The notes below the pieces were generated by a model. It was not told the origin of the DNA, did no database searches, and worked only from the letters and a program-made list of their open reading frames with translations. The position numbers and the translations under genes are program-made. Of a stretch of 64,000 nucleotides of DNA, positions 2,244-27,971 are shown piece after piece (position 1 is the stretch's first letter; every line of letters starts with the position of its first letter). Origin of the DNA: a virus; the IMG/VR virus record IMGVR_UViG_3300042448_002155, positions 49,715 to 113,714 of that record. One strand, given 5' to 3'.

Positions 2244-5200
2244 TTAATAAGATCGGGCTATCGATTGATATGGGTCTCTTGCCACATCCGGGATTCTATT
2301 ATACATAGTACTGTTAATACTCCCATTAGTGAGTCCCGATGCTGCTGCACTAAATTTTTGTATTTGGTCCCTATCGCCAAATAGGGAGACCTTATAATTC
2401 ATGCCCGCAGTAAAGCCTTGACCTCGTGCCTGTGGAATTTCTGACATTCTCTTTGGATAGTCGGACTCATAAGCTGATCCTCCTGGCAAAAGGGGTGGGC
2501 CGGACATGGCTTCCTGAGTGTGATCTTTTTTGTTTTGATATAAAAAGCTAGCTGCTATAGCTATTCCAGCACCTATGGCTGCATTGCGGACTCCGGGTTT
2601 GGCGAACTGCTCTGCTAGATATTGTTTGTTCATTCTTTTGTACATCGATTGTGAGGCAGTTGATTTCTTTACCTGCGACAGGTCCCTAAGGGTGTCTGCA
2701 ACAACTCCTGGAGTTGTTTCTGTTATATCATCTGCGGAAGAAAGAATTCTACTTGAAGCTAAATCTCCATTTAAGAAGGCTGCAGCTTCCTTGTCTGCCT
2801 GTGCATTCAATTCAAAGGCAGTTTTATTTCTTAGCGCTCTAGCTATTTGCTGTTCTTCCATAGTGCCTGCCCCTTCCTCGGCCTGGCCTTTTATGATTGA
2901 TGAAATAACAGAAGAAGTTTTGCCTGTTCCAAAAAAGTCATCTGCAAAATCTAAGTCCAGCGCATCATCCATGATGCCTGCCTTTTGAGTATCGGACATA
3001 TTGCCAAAAATGTCATCGACGTATTGTCTTAGTTGAAGGTTCTTAGTTGACTTTTCGTATATAGCCTTTTGATCTGACATTTGCATATACCTATGAAAGA
3101 GATTAAGGCTCTCATTGTCTATGTTTGTTGATGAGTCTGGAAGTTTTGTAAAAAACTCTGGAGCTATTTTTCTTCTTAATCCGCCATATTGAAGGGCGCT
3201 AGTTAGTTCATACCCAGATATGCCCATTGATTTTTGCACGTCTTGAAGATTTCTTAGTAAATTATCTCCCAGTTCTATTTTTTTTATCTCTAATGCTATT
3301 TTTGATGATTCTGCAAAAGAGCCACTTTGTATTTCGTCAGCTAAACTTTGTACTGCTTTTATTCTTTCTTGATTTTCGTCTAATATTTTTTCTGCTGCAA
3401 TTCGTGATCTTTCGCTTGTCCTGGAGACTAGCTCTTGTTCTTGACTGATTTGCGCATTTCTTCCCAGTTTTGCCATGGCTTCTAGGTAATAGTTTGAAGT
3501 ATTAGCTACGTCTACTATCTCAGAGAGTGATCCTTTTGCTATAATTCCTCTGGCCCTTAAAACTTTTTCTACTTCGTCATATTGTTGAGATTCTACGGCT
3601 TTATTAATGTCAGTTACATCTGCAGCGTTGTCTGCCTCCAACATCCCTGCTGATAAACTTCTTGCAAAATTTATAAGATCATTCTTATTCATTTTTTTAC
3701 TAGTTAAGAAAGCTTCATCGAGTACAAGGGCCTTACGTGGATCCATTGGATCCATTCCATCAAGTTTGTGTTTTTGCCTTAAGTAACCAAACATTTTTCC
3801 ATACTGTTGCATTGTTTTGTCGCCAAAATCATTTAGGTTAGTTTCTTTTCCGTATAATTCTTTTAGTACTTTTACTCCCAAGTTTGGATCTCCATTTGCA
3901 AGCTTAGTAGTTTGCCCCAACAGCATTCGTCCAGATGTAAAAGTTTGCGTCATGTCAATGACGGTTTCAGCTGGAGTAAAAGCTAACATTAGCTTCTTAT
4001 TTATCAAGTCCTCTTGTATGCCAGGAATTGTCCCCAGCATGTCTTCCATCTGCCTTAGGCCATGTCCAACCACAGTAGCTCTATTAATGTACTGTCCAAG
4101 GATGTTTGTATTTTCTATTGCTGAGTCAATACTCTTATTTATGAAAGATTTTCCTAGTGCAATACTTTTTTGTTCAGGGCTAATATTTAACGCATTGACT
4201 GTCTTATAAAACTTATCTGATAAACTTTGTATTTCCCTATCGGCGTCTTCAAGATCAACTCCGCCTAAATTTAAACGATTTTTTCTTTGATCTTTTAATT
4301 CTTTCGTCATCTGTTGAAGTTGACTTTTTTGCGATCTACTTATCAGGCTCATGCTATCTAGACTTGATAAGACTTCTTGTTCGAGTGGCATTTCTGCCAC
4401 TTCTGCCACTAGCCTCTGGAACCCAAGTGACATTAGTCCTGGATCTTGGTCACCTAAAGCGATTAATTTTGTTGCAGAGAAATGAGTAACTCCTTCTGTG
4501 CCATCGTCTAAAGTTCCAAAAACTCCTAATTTTTTAAAAAAGTTTTTATTAAAATCTCGCATTCCGCCAGTTCTAACACCATTGTCGAACTTAGCGCCGC
4601 TTAAGATGTCATTAACCTCAATGGTTAATTGTTCAATTGTACCCATCATTGAACTATTTATGACATCATCTGAAACTCCAGATCCGTCAAATGCCATTTT
4701 TAATCCAAGAAATTTAGAATCTCCTTTAGCCATCTCATCCAAAGTCTTCATAAAGAATCTATTGCCACCAAAAATTTCACGATAGCTTTCTATGTCCTCA
4801 AACCTAGTAAGGCCAATAACTTCGCCCATTGAAGTAGGCTGACGGACCATGGCGGCACCTAGTCTGCGCTTACCTTCAGACATATAGGTTCCAAGTATAG
4901 GCAATCCCTTATCGTCTAAGTCGAAACCTCCTAGTGCATGATAGAACTTTCTAATGTCATCTTCATGAAATAAAATATTATGATTAGAAACTCTGAACTG
5001 CGCAATCTGTGCGGAAATTTCATCGCCAGCTTCACCTATCGTTACCTTAATCGGCTTTCCTGATAATATCTTTGTTGGGTCAATGTCAATTGACTTTCCT
5101 GATAGCGTCTTTCTTCCAGTAGTTCCAGTCATTGCATTTGCTTCCGAGTTAAGAGCAAATCTATATACATCACCAACCACTGGAAGTCTCTGCCCATTTT

Positions 5201-25588: not shown

Positions 25589-25999
25589 TTACAATGAAAA
25601 AATTTTATATTGGTCGTTACTCCAATTAATCGTTACTGAAATAGGATCAGTGGTAGCTGATATTGGAAGCCCAGTAGCTGTATCTATATAGGCTAAAAGT
25701 CTTGACGTAGCTCTAACTCCAGTATCCTTGTATAAAACCAGGTAGGCAAAACCGCTATTTCCATAATTTTCCACTGTAATATTATCAGCGTCAAAAATAC
25801 CAGAAGCTGTTGTTTTTCCGCTTAACAAACTAGTAGTTGCTGCGACTGAATCTTCACTAATGCTTGACAAGAATTCATGTGTACTTAAATTTACTGTATA
25901 AGTATTTTTTACTAATGCAATTTTTAAATTGTTGTCAGTTAGATCGAATACACCCTCCAATAAGCCTTCTTTACCCTTTGTGTATAGTGCATTTGCCAT
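25589..25999 (-). CDS. Virion structural protein (136 aa)
   Basis: MANALY...KIALV...LLAYID pattern typical of small phage structural proteins. Confidence 0.6.
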   Translation of the reverse strand: MANALYTKGKEGLLEGVFDLTDNNLKIALVKNTYTVNLSTHEFLSSISEDSVAATTSLLSGKTTASGIFDADNITVENYGNSGFAYLVLYKDTGVRATSRLLAYIDTATGLPISATTDPISVTINWSNDQYKIFSL

Positions 26000-26772
26000 T
26001 ACAGGCCCACCTCAGCCGATACGATTACTCTGTATTTATAGCCTGATTCAAAGTAATTTTTTCCATCAACATAGTAAACCGGAGTAGCATCGTCTGACGG
26101 GAAGTCAATGTATACATCTGGCTTCCATGAGTGCATGGAGACTTCTGATGATACATTTTCCCATCTTGAGGGAGTCTTTTGGATTTTCTTACGTTGAGCT
26201 TTAAAGTACTTTAATGTCAAAAAGTTTGATGCTGGACGAGAACTAAATACAACTGTTACTCTTCCATTGTTCTCATCATTATTTAAATAAAAGTCACCAT
26301 TAGAAGGATTGGTTGATTCTATATAGAAATTAGGATTCTTTGCTAGTATCTGATATCCAGTTTCTATATCAGCTCTTACTGATTTATCCTCTATAAGCAC
26401 TTCGTTGAGTACTGTTGCTTGGCTCTCTTGCAGAATTGAAGGAGTTGCCGAATTGGTTTGGCTGGTAAAGCTAACTTTTTCCTCAGCCACCGTTAGCCCA
26501 GATGAGTCAACTAAGTTAGTGACCCTAACAATATAGTCGGTATTAGAGCTTAATACTACATCCCAATATAAAGTTAAAGTTCTACTAATCTGATTATAAT
26601 CAGTAATTGTATTTATTGTTCTAAATGGAGAAATTGTCTGAACAGGTGTAGCTGAATCTGTTTGTACAATAAAATTAGCATTTATTAATGATGCTATCTT
26701 GATTGTCCTGCCAAATTTAATATTTACTGTATTAACAGTAACTGTAGCACTATCTATCAAATATAAAGCCAC
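25999..26772 (-). CDS. Ig-like virion protein (257 aa)
   Basis: Beta-rich; follows the major capsid gene; GTG start with GGAG RBS. Confidence 0.55.
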   Translation of the reverse strand: MALYLIDSATVTVNTVNIKFGRTIKIASLINANFIVQTDSATPVQTISPFRTINTITDYNQISRTLTLYWDVVLSSNTDYIVRVTNLVDSSGLTVAEEKVSFTSQTNSATPSILQESQATVLNEVLIEDKSVRADIETGYQILAKNPNFYIESTNPSNGDFYLNNDENNGRVTVVFSSRPASNFLTLKYFKAQRKKIQKTPSRWENVSSEVSMHSWKPDVYIDFPSDDATPVYYVDGKNYFESGYKYRVIVSAEVGL

Positions 26773-26825
26773 TCAACACACTCCATAATTATAATCCTGA
26801 ACTAATAGTAATAAATTAATTCAAT

Positions 26826-26862
26826 AAAAAGCAAAGGGGCAGTAGATTTCTCTACCGCCCCC
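26826..26862 (-). terminator. Intrinsic terminator after the major capsid gene
   Basis: Minus strand GGGGCGGTAGA-GAAA-TCTACTGCCCC followed by TTTGCTTTTT. Confidence 0.8.
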
Positions 26863-26878
26863 AGCTTTAGGGTAATTT

Positions 26879-26900
26879 GTAACTATAACGACCCTAAGGT
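26879..26900 (-). other. 22-nt element complementary to 23S rRNA helix 69 in the capsid mRNA 3' UTR
   Basis: Plus strand GTAACTATAACGACCCTAAGGT versus conserved 23S GTAACTATAACGGTCCTAAGGT (20/22). Confidence 0.65.
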
Positions 26901-26906
26901 TTTTTA

Positions 26907-27971
26907 TCAGCTTAAGGCTACGTCGTTTGTAACTTGAACTTCGTAGTTACGGCTGAGTCTGACGTTCTTAGCAACTGTAATGCCCTCACCGTCGCCCAGC
27001 ATTACGATGTCGTAACGCTCCTTCATCTTGAGTGCACGAAGATCGCGACTCGGATCGTCGAACTGATCAGTGCTCATATCGTCCTTGACGAGAAGAGTAC
27101 CGACTTCATTACGGTCGATGAGGAAAAGGTCTGACTTAGCTGCTGTTCCGCCACTCTTAGCTGTGAAGCTAACAAAAGGCGAAACAAGAACATTCAAGCC
27201 CATCGGAGCCGTCGAGTTCAGTGCGCCTTCTGGCGACTGAGGACGATATCCCCAACTTGTACCTACAGAAGATGCTGCGCCACCAGCGTGGAAGATGGAA
27301 TCCTTGAGGAAGACCGACCACATTAATGGGTGCAGAATGAAATCTGTTGGGATATGATTTTCAGCCATAAGGATAGCGGCCATGTCCACAATGTCATCCC
27401 AGGTAATTGTCAAGTTGGCTGCGCCATCAATATTGCGACCTGTTGTGTCATCATAACTACCACTATCGTTATCGAATGCAATTGTAGCTGCATCCTTGAA
27501 ACGGCTAAGAGCAATCTGCTCTTTCAAACGAGCCATAGCACGGCCGGCTGCGCGAACATGTAAACCAACAATGTCCCAAAGTGAATCAGCGATGACTTCC
27601 TCCGTAAAGGATAGCTTAACGCCCTTCTTTGAAACTTTGCCTTCTACCTGCTTTGCGAAAGCGAGTGCTTGCTCTGGATACTCTTGTCCTTCTGGGATCT
27701 CTGCTGCTTGAATAGCGTTGACTGCGGGGAACTCCAAAGAGCGTCCCTTACCGAGACGAACAGTGGAAAGCAATGGAGTCACAAGTAGTTGTGGCTCTGC
27801 TGCTTCTTTAAGCGTACGCGAAAGAACTTTGGGGAAAAGTGCTGCTGCGTCTGGTGACGCAAAAGCTTCCTTAATTGTTACTCTGTTGTCTGCATCTATG
27901 TACCCGTCCTCAGTCAATACTGCTTCCCAAGCTGGGAGACCCGAGAGGAGCTCTTGGATTGTCTTACTCAT
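26907..27971 (-). CDS. Major capsid protein (HK97 fold)
   Basis: 354 aa; AAEIPEGQEYP, KKGVKLSFTEEVIADS; follows protease and decoration genes; strong RBS and terminator. Confidence 0.85.
   Translation of the reverse strand: MSKTIQELLSGLPAWEAVLTEDGYIDADNRVTIKEAFASPDAAALFPKVLSRTLKEAAEPQLLVTPLLSTVRLGKGRSLEFPAVNAIQAAEIPEGQEYPEQALAFAKQVEGKVSKKGVKLSFTEEVIADSLWDIVGLHVRAAGRAMARLKEQIALSRFKDAATIAFDNDSGSYDDTTGRNIDGAANLTITWDDIVDMAAILMAENHIPTDFILHPLMWSVFLKDSIFHAGGAASSVGTSWGYRPQSPEGALNSTAPMGLNVLVSPFVSFTAKSGGTAAKSDLFLIDRNEVGTLLVKDDMSTDQFDDPSRDLRALKMKERYDIVMLGDGEGITVAKNVRLSRNYEVQVTNDVALS

What the first reader, a model, noticed from the sequence alone, without database searches (positions are those of the whole stretch)
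26867..26909. Anti-23S rRNA helix-69 sequence displayed in a hairpin 6 nt after the major capsid stop codon
Seen: the mRNA reads UGA-UAAAAA-ACCUUAGGGUCGUUAUAGUUAC. Established: the conserved 23S segment GUAACUAUAACGGUCCUAAGGU (H69/H70, overlapping the I-CeuI site) forms intersubunit bridge B2a and contacts release and recycling factors. The phage element can pair with all 22 nt, and both differences from the perfect complement are G-U wobbles. UUAGGGU also pairs with a downstream ACCCUAA, leaving the part complementary to the H69 loop (CGUUAUAGUUAC) in the hairpin loop, just before the terminator. Inference: a cis element on a very abundant late mRNA that engages the 50S subunit (termination, recycling or ribosome capture), or a processed antisense RNA. 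Alternatives are an rDNA-derived att core or a nuclease-site remnant.
Basis: partly seen in the sequence, partly recalled or inferred. Interest (0 to 1): 0.82.

Follow-up and report, generated by a model that had tools for sequence, protein, structure and literature searches.

The report
Phage hairpin antisense to ribosomal helix-69
Just after its major capsid gene, this large uncultured freshwater phage of actinobacteria carries a small, strictly conserved RNA hairpin whose loop and 5' arm are the mirror image of helix 69-70 of 23S ribosomal RNA; the same module sits in at least three unrelated phage lineages, so these phages probably pair an RNA with the host's large ribosomal subunit, which I found described in no paper.

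Summary
On the minus (mRNA) strand, 6 nt after the capsid stop codon, 26900-26879 is complementary to 23S rRNA 1910-1931 at 20 of 22 positions. It lies in a hairpin directly before a strong intrinsic terminator.

It is not chance. All 149 capsid relatives with enough downstream sequence carry it in the same place and orientation. The 7-nt loop UAUAGUU (the complement of the H69 loop) never changes among them, the 5' block CUUAGG almost never, and the stem between them covaries. The same module follows an unrelated capsid gene (family F2, up to 20/20 antisense to 23S). It also lies in a 125-150-nt structured RNA beside terL or in tRNA arrays (F3), and after nrdA. The phages tested encode WhiB, so they are actinophages. 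The sampled Actinomycetes lack RlmH, whose methylation of psi1915 would block this pairing. F3 matches the Actinomycetes-specific 23S variant.

My best reading, at about 45%, is a loop-displayed antisense RNA that pairs with H69 of free or nascent 50S subunits. A role tied to translation termination in cis is not supported. The att-core and nuclease-site readings are not supported either. The closest natural look-alike is the guide sequence of group I introns inserted in H69. An earlier agent of this scan reached a similar reading on another genome.

The parts
26907..27971 (-). Major capsid protein gene; stop codon TGA at 26909-26907.
   Evidence: Pfam PF25209 and PF05065. tblastn to annotated major head proteins of Bacillus phages 0305phi8-36 and KLEB27-3. 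Held as RNA contigs in river and lake metatranscriptomes of 19 studies.
26879..26900 (-). 22-nt stretch antisense to 23S rRNA 1910-1931 (H69 loop, H69 3' strand, start of H70).
   Evidence: 2 mismatches, unique in the window, none in shuffles. Alignment A1 with Salmonella 23S.
26893..26898 (-). 5' block CUUAGG, complementary to 23S 1925-1930. It also forms the base of the hairpin's 5' arm.
   Evidence: Identical in 73 of 78 unique elements of families F1 and F2, while its 3' partner takes at least 19 forms.
26879..26889 (-). Conserved 11-mer GUUAUAGUUAC. Its core UAUAGUU (26887-26881) is the exact complement of the H69 loop AACUAUA.
   Evidence: The core is invariant in 59 unique F1 elements. 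The only recurrent change elsewhere is A to G opposite U1917, in F2 and again in F3. One copy per complete genome apart from one stray 11-mer in G003; a single strong covariance-model hit in the window's own genome.
26867..26897 (-). Hairpin 1: stem UUAGGGU / ACCCUAA enclosing a 17-nt loop.
   Evidence: Fold. Compensatory stem changes in relatives. The mRNA-sense strand folds better than its complement in 50 of 65 unique elements, with 86 G-U pairs against 4 C-A appositions.
26825..26862 (-). Intrinsic terminator: 12-bp G+C-rich stem, loop GAAA within GAGAAAUC, then a U tract.
   Evidence: Present after the hairpin in F1 and F2 relatives. RNA contigs of the runs laid do not continue through it.
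26804..26812 (-). ATTACTATT, a GTTACTA-type motif before the next gene; a candidate phage promoter and not part of the hairpin.
Evidence: Kept 15-25 nt after the terminator in F1 relatives.
25999..26772 (-). Next gene downstream: Ig-like (Big_5) protein, probably a head decoration protein.
   Evidence: Pfam PF13205, E 1.8e-4, just under the curated cut-off.

Best explanation
The element is an RNA-level antisense module, displayed in a hairpin loop, directed against helix 69-70 of the host's 23S rRNA. It rides on abundant phage transcripts; here that is the 3' end of the major capsid mRNA of a roughly 200-kb jumbo actinophage.

Shown:
- It is a hairpin on the mRNA strand.
- Its 7-nt loop core UAUAGUU and its 5' block CUUAGG are held constant, while the stem between them and the 3' arm change freely.
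- Both constant blocks are the exact complement of 23S 1912-1918 and 1925-1930, at the right spacing.

Inferred:
- The loop makes a first kissing contact with the exposed H69 loop of a free or still-assembling 50S subunit.
- Pairing can then extend to 11 bp (1910-1920) and, after the hairpin opens, to CCUAAG.
- This is feasible in Actinomycetes because they lack RlmH, so psi1915 in the middle of the H69 loop keeps its Watson-Crick face.
- By analogy with synthetic anti-H69 PNA, the bound subunit could not form bridge B2a, so it would be kept out of translation or out of late maturation.

Whether the phage gains by holding 50S subunits on its RNA, by throttling host ribosome production, or by shielding the mRNA 3' end is not known.
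For: 1. Universality and fixed orientation in F1: 149 of 149 loci, 59 unique versions. There is one copy per complete 194-268-kb genome, apart from one stray 11-mer.
2. The conserved positions are the 23S-complementary ones. The loop core is invariant and CUUAGG is kept in 73 of 78 unique elements; the spacing is 3 nt in 59 of 78, as in 23S.
3. The same module sits after an unrelated capsid gene (F2) with 20/20 identity to the antisense of annotated 23S rRNA. It also occurs in F3 RNAs near terL and tRNA arrays, after nrdA (L104, 21 nt exact) and after terL (L148). There is no flanking homology between these contexts, which fits convergence on a fixed target.
4. It is RNA rather than DNA: G-U pairs and strand asymmetry.
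5. The 5' block is kept even where its 3' partner is replaced by wobble pairs, bulges or an inserted hairpin.
6. Host link: WhiB is encoded in 5 of 5 complete F1 genomes, in an F2 record and in two F3 records. RlmH was found in 0 of 201 genomes of the class of Nocardia and not in C. glutamicum, while 8 control genomes have it.
7. F3 carries AUGG next to the loop block. It fits the Actinomycetes 23S (CCAU) better in 31 of 38 unique elements, and F2 fits the GGU type in 19 of 19. Both 23S types exist in the phylum.
8. The only recurrent loop change, A to G, arose in both F2 and F3 and keeps a wobble pair with U1917.
9. H69 is reachable by antisense: an anti-H69 PNA blocks translation and E. coli growth (Kulik 2017, as cited in PMC12828698).
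10. The sequence of H69 can be bound by a natural RNA guide: the group I intron guide sequence reads GGACCGUUGUAGUUAC.
Against: - No experiment or chimeric read shows the pairing.
- The middle 2-4 nt of the F1 element vary with transversions (GAA, AAA, ACA), so a continuous 22-bp duplex is not selected there.
- Duplex energy against the whole 23S is not exceptional: -34.3 kcal/mol against a mean of -29.3 (sd 5.9) for random 41-mers, z -0.9.
- The H69 stem and CCUAAG are buried or paired in mature 50S (own knowledge).
- Hosts are not assigned, so the F2/F3 covariation is unproven. The AUG of F3 also pairs inside its own hairpin.
- Some flank variants break pairing: G1 to A and U2 to C.
- Cultured relatives that infect Bacillus and Streptomyces lack the element. 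About 43% of the sampled F2 loci lack it.
- A benefit to the phage from blocking 50S while its own late proteins are being made is not obvious.
Confidence: 0.45

Rival explanations
1. The hairpin is a binding or processing site for a protein, either an actinobacterial host factor or a phage protein, or it is a plain stabiliser of the mRNA 3' end. It would set the 3' end, the stability or the partial read-through of highly expressed transcripts. The likeness to the antisense of 23S would then be a by-product of its origin or of mimicry.
For: It always lies between a highly expressed gene and a terminator. It is restricted to aquatic actinophages and absent from cultured relatives, which would fit a lineage-specific factor. 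The middle of the stem is free to vary, as in protein-bound hairpins. RNA contigs of three studies stop inside the hairpin at 26891, 26878 and 26873, which is only a weak hint.
Against: This reading does not explain why 17-20 conserved positions equal the antisense of 23S: the chance for a two-block 17-mer against about 4.5 kb of rRNA is about 1e-6 by my own arithmetic. It does not explain why F3 carries the Actinomycetes-specific AUGG, or why unrelated phages with no flanking homology share the element. The contexts have no shared neighbouring gene. The stem is too short for RNase III, and no RNase III gene lies in the held half of the genome.
Confidence: 0.3
2. The element is related to group I introns. 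It would be a guide sequence (P1/P10 strand) for the U1917 site of 23S, either a relic of an rRNA intron's 5' end or the guide of a small trans-acting RNA. The 125-150-nt F3 form would be the full version, acting on 23S at H69.
For: Seven bacterial 23S genes carry a group I intron in the H69 loop whose 5' end reads GGACCGUUGUAGUUAC. This is the F2/F3 variant, including the G opposite U1917. The contexts (capsid, terL, nrdA, tRNA clusters) are classic homes of phage introns (own knowledge). F3 is a compact structured RNA with a well-supported closing helix.
Against: Any RNA that pairs with H69 must look like that guide, so the likeness may be trivial. Rfam Intron_gpI and every ribozyme family failed to match the window, L156 and other loci. 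None of five complete F1 genomes has a group I intron over threshold. In F1 and F2 only a hairpin and a terminator are present. Most elements have A, not G, opposite U1917. The sampled Actinomycetes 23S genes are uninterrupted at this site.
Confidence: 0.08
3. The element acts at the DNA level: an rDNA-derived att core, or the remnant or decoy of a site for an rDNA-specific homing endonuclease of the I-CeuI type.
For: The plus strand resembles the left and central part of the I-CeuI site, and H69 rDNA is a hot spot for introns.
Against: The stem covaries with many G-U pairs on one strand only. The right half of the I-CeuI site (AGCGA) is absent. Five complete relatives have no tyrosine integrase and no LAGLIDADG_1 gene, and two of them have direct terminal repeats. 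The orientation relative to transcription is fixed in every case.
Confidence: 0.04
4. The match between an ordinary terminator-proximal hairpin and a famous rRNA sequence is chance.
For: A single 20/22 match is expected a few times in a scan of this size. Duplex energy is unremarkable.
Against: Conservation falls on exactly the complementary blocks. The identity is 20/20 and 21/21 in other lineages, and the element recurs in at least three unrelated phage families.
Confidence: 0.02

Closest known systems
Internal guide sequence (P1/P10 strands) of group I introns inserted in the H69 loop of 23S rRNA (L1917-type). Seen here in WOR-3, Omnitrophota and Acidobacteriota MAGs.
   Same: Nearly the same sequence: GGACCGUUGUAGUUAC, antisense to both sides of U1917, with a G-U wobble at U1917 as in the F2/F3 variant. 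It is a natural RNA that pairs with the H69 sequence.
   Different: It acts in cis inside the rRNA precursor and is part of a 250-nt ribozyme. The phage element has no intron core, lies in phage transcripts, and mostly has A opposite U1917.
Loop-displayed antisense RNAs that start pairing by a kissing complex (CopA/CopT of R1, RNA I/RNA II of ColE1); own knowledge.
   Same: A 6-7-nt hairpin loop fully complementary to a target hairpin loop, with more complementarity in the stem for later extension. The action is independent of Hfq, which actinobacteria lack.
   Different: The targets there are mRNAs or primers, not rRNA. No YUNR U-turn motif is present in this loop. This element is attached to an mRNA 3' end or to a tRNA-array RNA.
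Synthetic anti-H69 peptide nucleic acids (Kulik et al. 2017, as cited in PMC12828698).
   Same: The same target helix. They show that H69 can be invaded by an antisense strand and that this blocks translation and growth.
   Different: They are artificial, uncharged backbones tested in E. coli. They say nothing about a natural RNA or about benefit to a phage.
Viral mRNA elements with rRNA complementarity: calicivirus TURBS (18S), the T7 gene 10 epsilon and downstream-box ideas (16S), and the turnip crinkle virus 3' T-shaped structure that binds 60S; own knowledge.
   Same: A virus places a ribosome-directed RNA element on a structural-gene mRNA. The TCV element is in the 3' UTR and binds the large subunit.
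   Different: Those elements act on the small-subunit rRNA or by tRNA mimicry and promote initiation or re-initiation. None pairs with H69, and none is known in phages for 23S.
The H. pylori antisense RNA that pairs with the 23S precursor leader and directs RNase III processing (PMC6582327).
   Same: A small antisense RNA pairs with the 23S precursor in trans.
   Different: It is host-encoded, targets the leader rather than a functional helix, and serves maturation.
Pistol self-cleaving ribozyme (a look-alike recalled from memory).
   Same: A UUAGGG...CCCUAA helix and a GUUAAAUAGUUGC-like stretch; common in phage metagenomes.
   Different: The Rfam Pistol model does not match even at E 10. There is no P1 hairpin and no 3' strand for P2.

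Membership tests
Any Rfam 15 family | Score at or above the family's gathering threshold. | tested here: not met
   Window 26600-27000 scanned at E up to 10. The best match is BjrC68 at 26.5 bits against a threshold of 39, an architecture match of two hairpins only. Seven other loci and L156 8100-8300 gave only tRNAs.
Group I intron | A guide sequence complementary to the exon flanks. | tested here: met
   The element equals the guide of the H69-inserted introns in L283, L289 and others. However, this follows from any antisense to H69.
Group I intron | The catalytic core P3-P9 (Rfam RF00028). | tested here: not met
   No match in the window, in L156 or in the other loci. None over threshold in five complete F1 genomes.
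Pistol ribozyme | Covariance-model match with P1, pseudoknot, P2 and P3. | tested here: not met
   No Pistol match at E up to 10.
Intrinsic (Rho-independent) terminator | A G+C-rich stem-loop directly followed by a U tract. | tested here: met
   Met by hairpin 2 at 26862-26825. Hairpin 1, the element itself, has no U tract on the mRNA strand and is not the terminator.
I-CeuI / LAGLIDADG homing site | The full 26-bp site including the right half GGTAGCGA, with a cognate nuclease gene. | tested here: not met
   The likeness ends at AAGGT and TTTTTAT follows. No LAGLIDADG_1 gene in five complete relatives.
Phage att core | An integrase gene and identity to a bacterial attachment site used for integration. 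| tested here: not met
   No PF00589 integrase in five complete relatives, two of which have direct terminal repeats.
Kissing-loop antisense RNA | A loop complementary to a loop of the target. | tested here: met
   UAUAGUU against the H69 loop AACUAUA, 7 of 7; the loop is invariant in F1.
Kissing-loop antisense RNA | Demonstrated pairing with the target and an effect on it. | not testable with these tools
   This needs binding assays or crosslink-ligation data.
3'-UTR-derived small RNA | A separate short transcript (hairpin plus terminator) that accumulates. | tested here: inconclusive
   Only assembled RNA contigs were available. They stop at 26891, 26878 and 26873 and do not cover the terminator.

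The most novel reading that the evidence does not exclude
Aquatic actinophages encode a family of anti-ribosome RNAs. A guide that mirrors H69-H70 is either appended to abundant mRNAs (F1, F2) or built into a processed 125-150-nt structured RNA released from tRNA arrays (F3). These RNAs dock on, and perhaps chemically act on, 23S rRNA at the U1917 site, which is the site used by group I introns. That would give the phage direct RNA-level control of the host's large ribosomal subunit. This would be possible only in hosts that, like the Actinomycetes, do not methylate psi1915.
Probability: 0.1. Interest if true: 0.95.

Novelty: categorically new. Interest (0 to 1): 0.8.

Why it matters
H69 forms bridge B2a and touches tRNAs, release factors and the recycling factor. 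No natural trans-acting RNA is known to pair with it, and phages are not known to address the 50S subunit by base pairing.

If the pairing is real, several things follow.
- It would be a new way for viruses to handle bacterial ribosomes.
- It would suggest a biological role for the m3-psi1915 methylation, as protection of the H69 loop against such RNAs.
- It would supply a natural template for antisense antibacterials against H69.
- It would add a widespread, expressed RNA family of abundant freshwater phages to a catalogue that now lacks it.

Even if the target is something else, this is a very strongly conserved, easily testable 35-nt element shared by unrelated phages.

Tried and rejected
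- **Cultured phages.** blastn of the capsid region found nothing. The F2 element matched only 23S rRNA contaminants, and the F3 RNA matched nothing.
- **Literature.** Searches for the 11-mer and for RNAs antisense to 23S found no phage case.
- **Phage promoter idea.** I tested whether GTTATAGTTAC is a repeated phage promoter. It occurs once in 113.7 kb, so the idea is rejected.
- **Recoding signal idea.** A read-through or frameshift signal is rejected because of double stop codons and variable spacing.
- **Host 23S with C1917.** I scanned for a 23S variant that would match the UGUAGUU loop. Of 34 hits, 27 are not in 23S genes and look like coding-sequence coincidences, and 7 are intron guide sequences, so no real 23S variant was found.
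- **Duplex energy** against the whole 23S is not exceptional.
- **RNase III and tRNAs.** No RNase III gene in the held half of the genome and no tRNAs in the window. WhiB is also not in the held half.
- **RNA contigs.** The parts without cover, namely the terminator and the downstream gene, prove nothing about transcript ends, because contig data cannot show ends.
- **Partner parse** of the 3' arm is noisy because the elements were cut 22 nt after the 11-mer.
- **G+C content** of the three families (42%, 43%, 36%) did not help to assign hosts.
- **preQ1-I riboswitch and RNase P guide sequence** were considered from memory and dropped. Rfam gave no match and there is no conserved RCCA.
Full report
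**What is there.** Genes in this part of the window run on the minus strand. ORF 26907-27971 is the major capsid protein: Pfam Phage_capsid_4, E 1.4e-16, and 38-42% identity to annotated major head proteins of Bacillus jumbo phages such as 0305phi8-36. After its stop codon (26909-26907) and six bases comes ACCUUAGGGUCGUUAUAGUUAC (26900-26879). Its plus-strand complement matches the 23S rRNA segment GTAACTATAACGGTCCTAAGGT with two mismatches. This is the only such site in the window, and none appeared in 100 shuffles. UUAGGGU pairs with ACCCUAA (26873-26867), which puts CGUUAUAGUUACAAAUU in the loop. Two bases later a 12-bp G+C-rich hairpin with a U tract forms a textbook intrinsic terminator. 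The window is the right-hand part of a 113.7-kb virus record that is 54% complete.

**Is it more than chance?** One 20/22 match proves little in a scan of this size, so I looked at relatives.
- The capsid has more than 500 relatives in IMG/VR. I call this family F1.
- All 149 F1 loci that hold enough downstream sequence carry the element, after the stop codon and in the same orientation. They give 59 different versions.
- The loop core UAUAGUU never changes within F1. The 11-mer GUUAUAGUUAC is exact in 49 of the 59 versions and varies only at its two outer positions on each side.
- The block CUUAGG is exact in 73 of 78 unique elements of F1 and F2 together.
- The 2-4 bases between the two blocks change freely, with compensating changes on the 3' arm. 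One example is UUAAGACUGU paired with ACAGUCUUAA.
- Complete relatives are 194-268 kb, two of them with terminal repeats. Each holds one element, apart from one stray copy of the 11-mer in one genome. A covariance model finds a single strong copy in the window's own genome.

The two constant blocks are exactly the parts complementary to 23S 1910-1920 and 1925-1930, and their usual spacing of three bases is that of 23S. By my own arithmetic, a two-block 17-mer would match about 4.5 kb of rRNA at the right spacing by chance with a probability near 1e-6.

**The element is not private to this phage family.** A pattern scan of viral contigs and two further protein-anchored samples gave these contexts.
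- F2: directly after an unrelated HK97-type capsid gene (PF05065; 54% identity to Streptomyces phages, no blastp likeness to the window's capsid). 45 loci have the element and 34 lack it. Some F2 members read CUUAGGACCGUUAUAGUUAC, which is 100% identical to the antisense of annotated 23S rRNA of Salmonella, Dickeya and Acinetobacter.
- F3: inside a 125-150-nt RNA that lies just after terL or between tRNA genes. It is closed by a 12-bp helix in which all 12 pairs show compensatory changes.
- After a ribonucleotide reductase gene (L104, 21 nt exact) and after another terL (L148).

These contexts share no flanking sequence. The cultured relatives Bacillus phages 0305phi8-36 and KLEB27-3 and Streptomyces phage Angela have only a terminator after the capsid gene. 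No Rfam family matches, and I found no paper that mentions the sequence in a phage.

**RNA or DNA, and which strand?** The mRNA-sense strand folds better than its complement in 50 of 65 unique elements (Wilcoxon p 1e-5; the sequences are related, so this is indicative only). The stems hold 86 G-U pairs against 4 C-A appositions. That points to an RNA hairpin on the transcribed strand. It argues against a cruciform and against a sense mimic of H69 made from the other strand.

The 5' block keeps its sequence even where its partner is replaced by GGGG wobbles, by a bulge, or by a 3' arm displaced by an inserted hairpin. There are 3 forms of the 5' block against at least 19 of the partner (the partner parse is rough). 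This asymmetry is what one expects if the 5' arm also has to read something else.

Metatranscriptomes of rivers and lakes from 19 studies hold the capsid RNA. In three studies the RNA contigs stop inside the hairpin (26891, 26878, 26873), and none runs through the terminator. With contigs this is only a weak hint about the 3' end.

**Host and target.**
- All five complete F1 genomes, an F2 record and two F3 records encode WhiB, a factor that among the 14 control genomes is found only in Corynebacterium. These are therefore actinophages. The held half of the window's own genome lacks whiB.
- RlmH, the enzyme that methylates N3 of psi1915 in the centre of the H69 loop (PMC5430550 abstract), was found in none of 201 genomes of the class of Nocardia and not in C. 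glutamicum. Eight other control bacteria have it.
- The methyl group would remove the Watson-Crick face of the central base (own knowledge). Its absence is what a 7-bp loop-loop contact needs.
- The Actinomycetes 23S differs from the E. coli type in the H69 stem: GGUGG/CCAUC instead of GGCCG/CGGUC. The loop and CCUAAGG are unchanged. Against this type the window's element has 20 Watson-Crick pairs, one G-U pair and one C-C mismatch.
- F3 elements carry AUGG or GUGG next to the loop block, the complement of the Actinomycetes-specific CCAU. They fit that type better in 31 of 38 unique sequences, which includes every genuine element. F2 fits the general GGU type in 19 of 19 and F1 is in between.
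- Both 23S types occur in the phylum: 97 of 301 sampled genomes have the exact GGU type. One of those 97, G320, is flagged unpublished; the claim does not depend on it.
- Because the hosts are not assigned, and because the AUG of F3 also pairs within its own hairpin, I count this as suggestive covariation, not proof.
- The only recurrent change in the loop, A to G opposite U1917, arose in F2 and again in F3. It keeps a wobble pair with U1917. No 23S gene with C1917 exists among about 185,000 species, so this change is tolerance of a wobble and not compensation for a host variant.

**An unexpected precedent.** The scan for C1917 turned up seven 23S genes (WOR-3, Omnitrophota, Acidobacteriota and others) that are interrupted in the H69 loop. 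The insert begins with GGACCGUUGUAGUUAC and is a group I intron by Rfam: 67.8 bits, E 1e-16, in L289. This is the intron's internal guide, which pairs with both exon flanks and places a G-U wobble at U1917. It is almost the same sequence as the phage element. It shows that nature already uses an RNA strand of this sequence to hold H69 RNA. It does not make the phage element an intron. No intron core is found in the window, in F3 or in five complete F1 genomes, and any antisense to H69 must resemble that guide.

**What it most likely does.** I commit to an antisense module that pairs with H69 of free or nascent 50S subunits. Pairing would start with a loop-loop contact and could extend into 1910-1920 and CCUAAG. 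The conservation, the strand, the display in a loop and the host's lack of RlmH are shown. The pairing itself and its outcome are inferred. By analogy with anti-H69 PNA, which blocks translation and growth of E. coli (Kulik 2017, cited in PMC12828698), a bound subunit could not form bridge B2a. I give this reading about 0.45.

Points against it:
- The middle of the element is not selected for 23S pairing in F1.
- The duplex energy is ordinary (z -0.9).
- The H69 stem and CCUAAG are not free in mature subunits.
- Part of F2 and all cultured relatives do without the element.
- The gain for the phage is unclear.

The 11-mer starts 12-36 nt after the first base of the stop codon, double stops are common, and the module also works without any stop codon in tRNA arrays.

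**Rivals.**
- A protein-binding or 3'-end stability hairpin (0.3) fits the position and the lineage restriction. It leaves the identity with the antisense of 23S and the F3 variant unexplained.
- A guide related to group I introns, perhaps with the F3 RNA as an active partner (0.08), is the most novel reading still open.
- DNA-level readings, att core or homing-site remnant (0.04), conflict with the G-U-rich covariation, with the missing right half of the I-CeuI site, and with the absence of integrase and LAGLIDADG genes in complete relatives.
- Pure chance (0.02) is excluded in practice by the family data.

**Verdict.** This is a new, widespread and expressed RNA element of aquatic actinophages that mirrors the functional tip of the large ribosomal subunit, with a clear set of bench tests. 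An earlier agent of this scan reached a similar reading on another genome. I treated that as a lead only and tested the claim independently here.

Noticed in passing
L410:5098-5244 and relatives L411-L488; also L156:8130-8290 (minus strand): A structured RNA family of 125-150 nt in whiB-encoding phages, lying just after terL or between tRNA genes. It is closed by a 12-bp helix in which all 12 pairs show compensatory changes. It has conserved inner blocks (UAAGAGUY, GGGCAG, CUGGAA) besides the anti-H69 block. No Rfam match.
   Followed up: partly
L289:3999-4281 and 3268-3946 (minus strand); also L283, L290, L299, L302, L308, L310: 23S rRNA genes of WOR-3, Omnitrophota, Acidobacteriota and related MAGs carry a group I intron inserted in the H69 loop. 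L289 holds a second group I intron close behind it.
   Followed up: partly
L407, L408, L409 (23S segments of Actinomycetes genomes G035, G085, G082): In the class of Nocardia the H69 stem reads GGUGG/CCAUC instead of GGCCG/CGGUC, and RlmH (PF02590) was found in none of 201 sampled genomes. Other classes of the phylum have the GGU type, and one Thermoleophilia MAG has RlmH.
   Followed up: partly
window 26804-26812 (minus strand); same place in L001-L080: A GTTACTA-type motif (ATTACTATT here) is kept 15-25 nt after the terminator and about 30-45 nt before the Ig-like gene. Similar copies lie at about 18797 and 22609 on the minus strand.
   Followed up: partly
window 26835-26862 (minus strand); L197-L236: Many terminators of the two unrelated capsid families share the loop GAGAAAUC. 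This could be a mark of a shared host lineage or of a shared module.
   Followed up: no
L237-L276 (part of family F2): 34 of 79 sampled F2 loci lack the hairpin and have only a terminator after the capsid gene, so the element has been gained or lost within one capsid family.
   Followed up: partly
G003:C1:34725-34735 (locus L404): A second exact copy of GTTATAGTTAC lies on the other strand, 4.4 kb from the capsid element, in one complete relative. Its context was not examined.
   Followed up: no
window 26873-26891: RNA contigs of three metatranscriptome studies end inside the hairpin (26891, 26878, 26873), and the terminator and the downstream gene have almost no cover. This is compatible with a 3' end at or near the element, but contigs cannot show ends.
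   Followed up: partly
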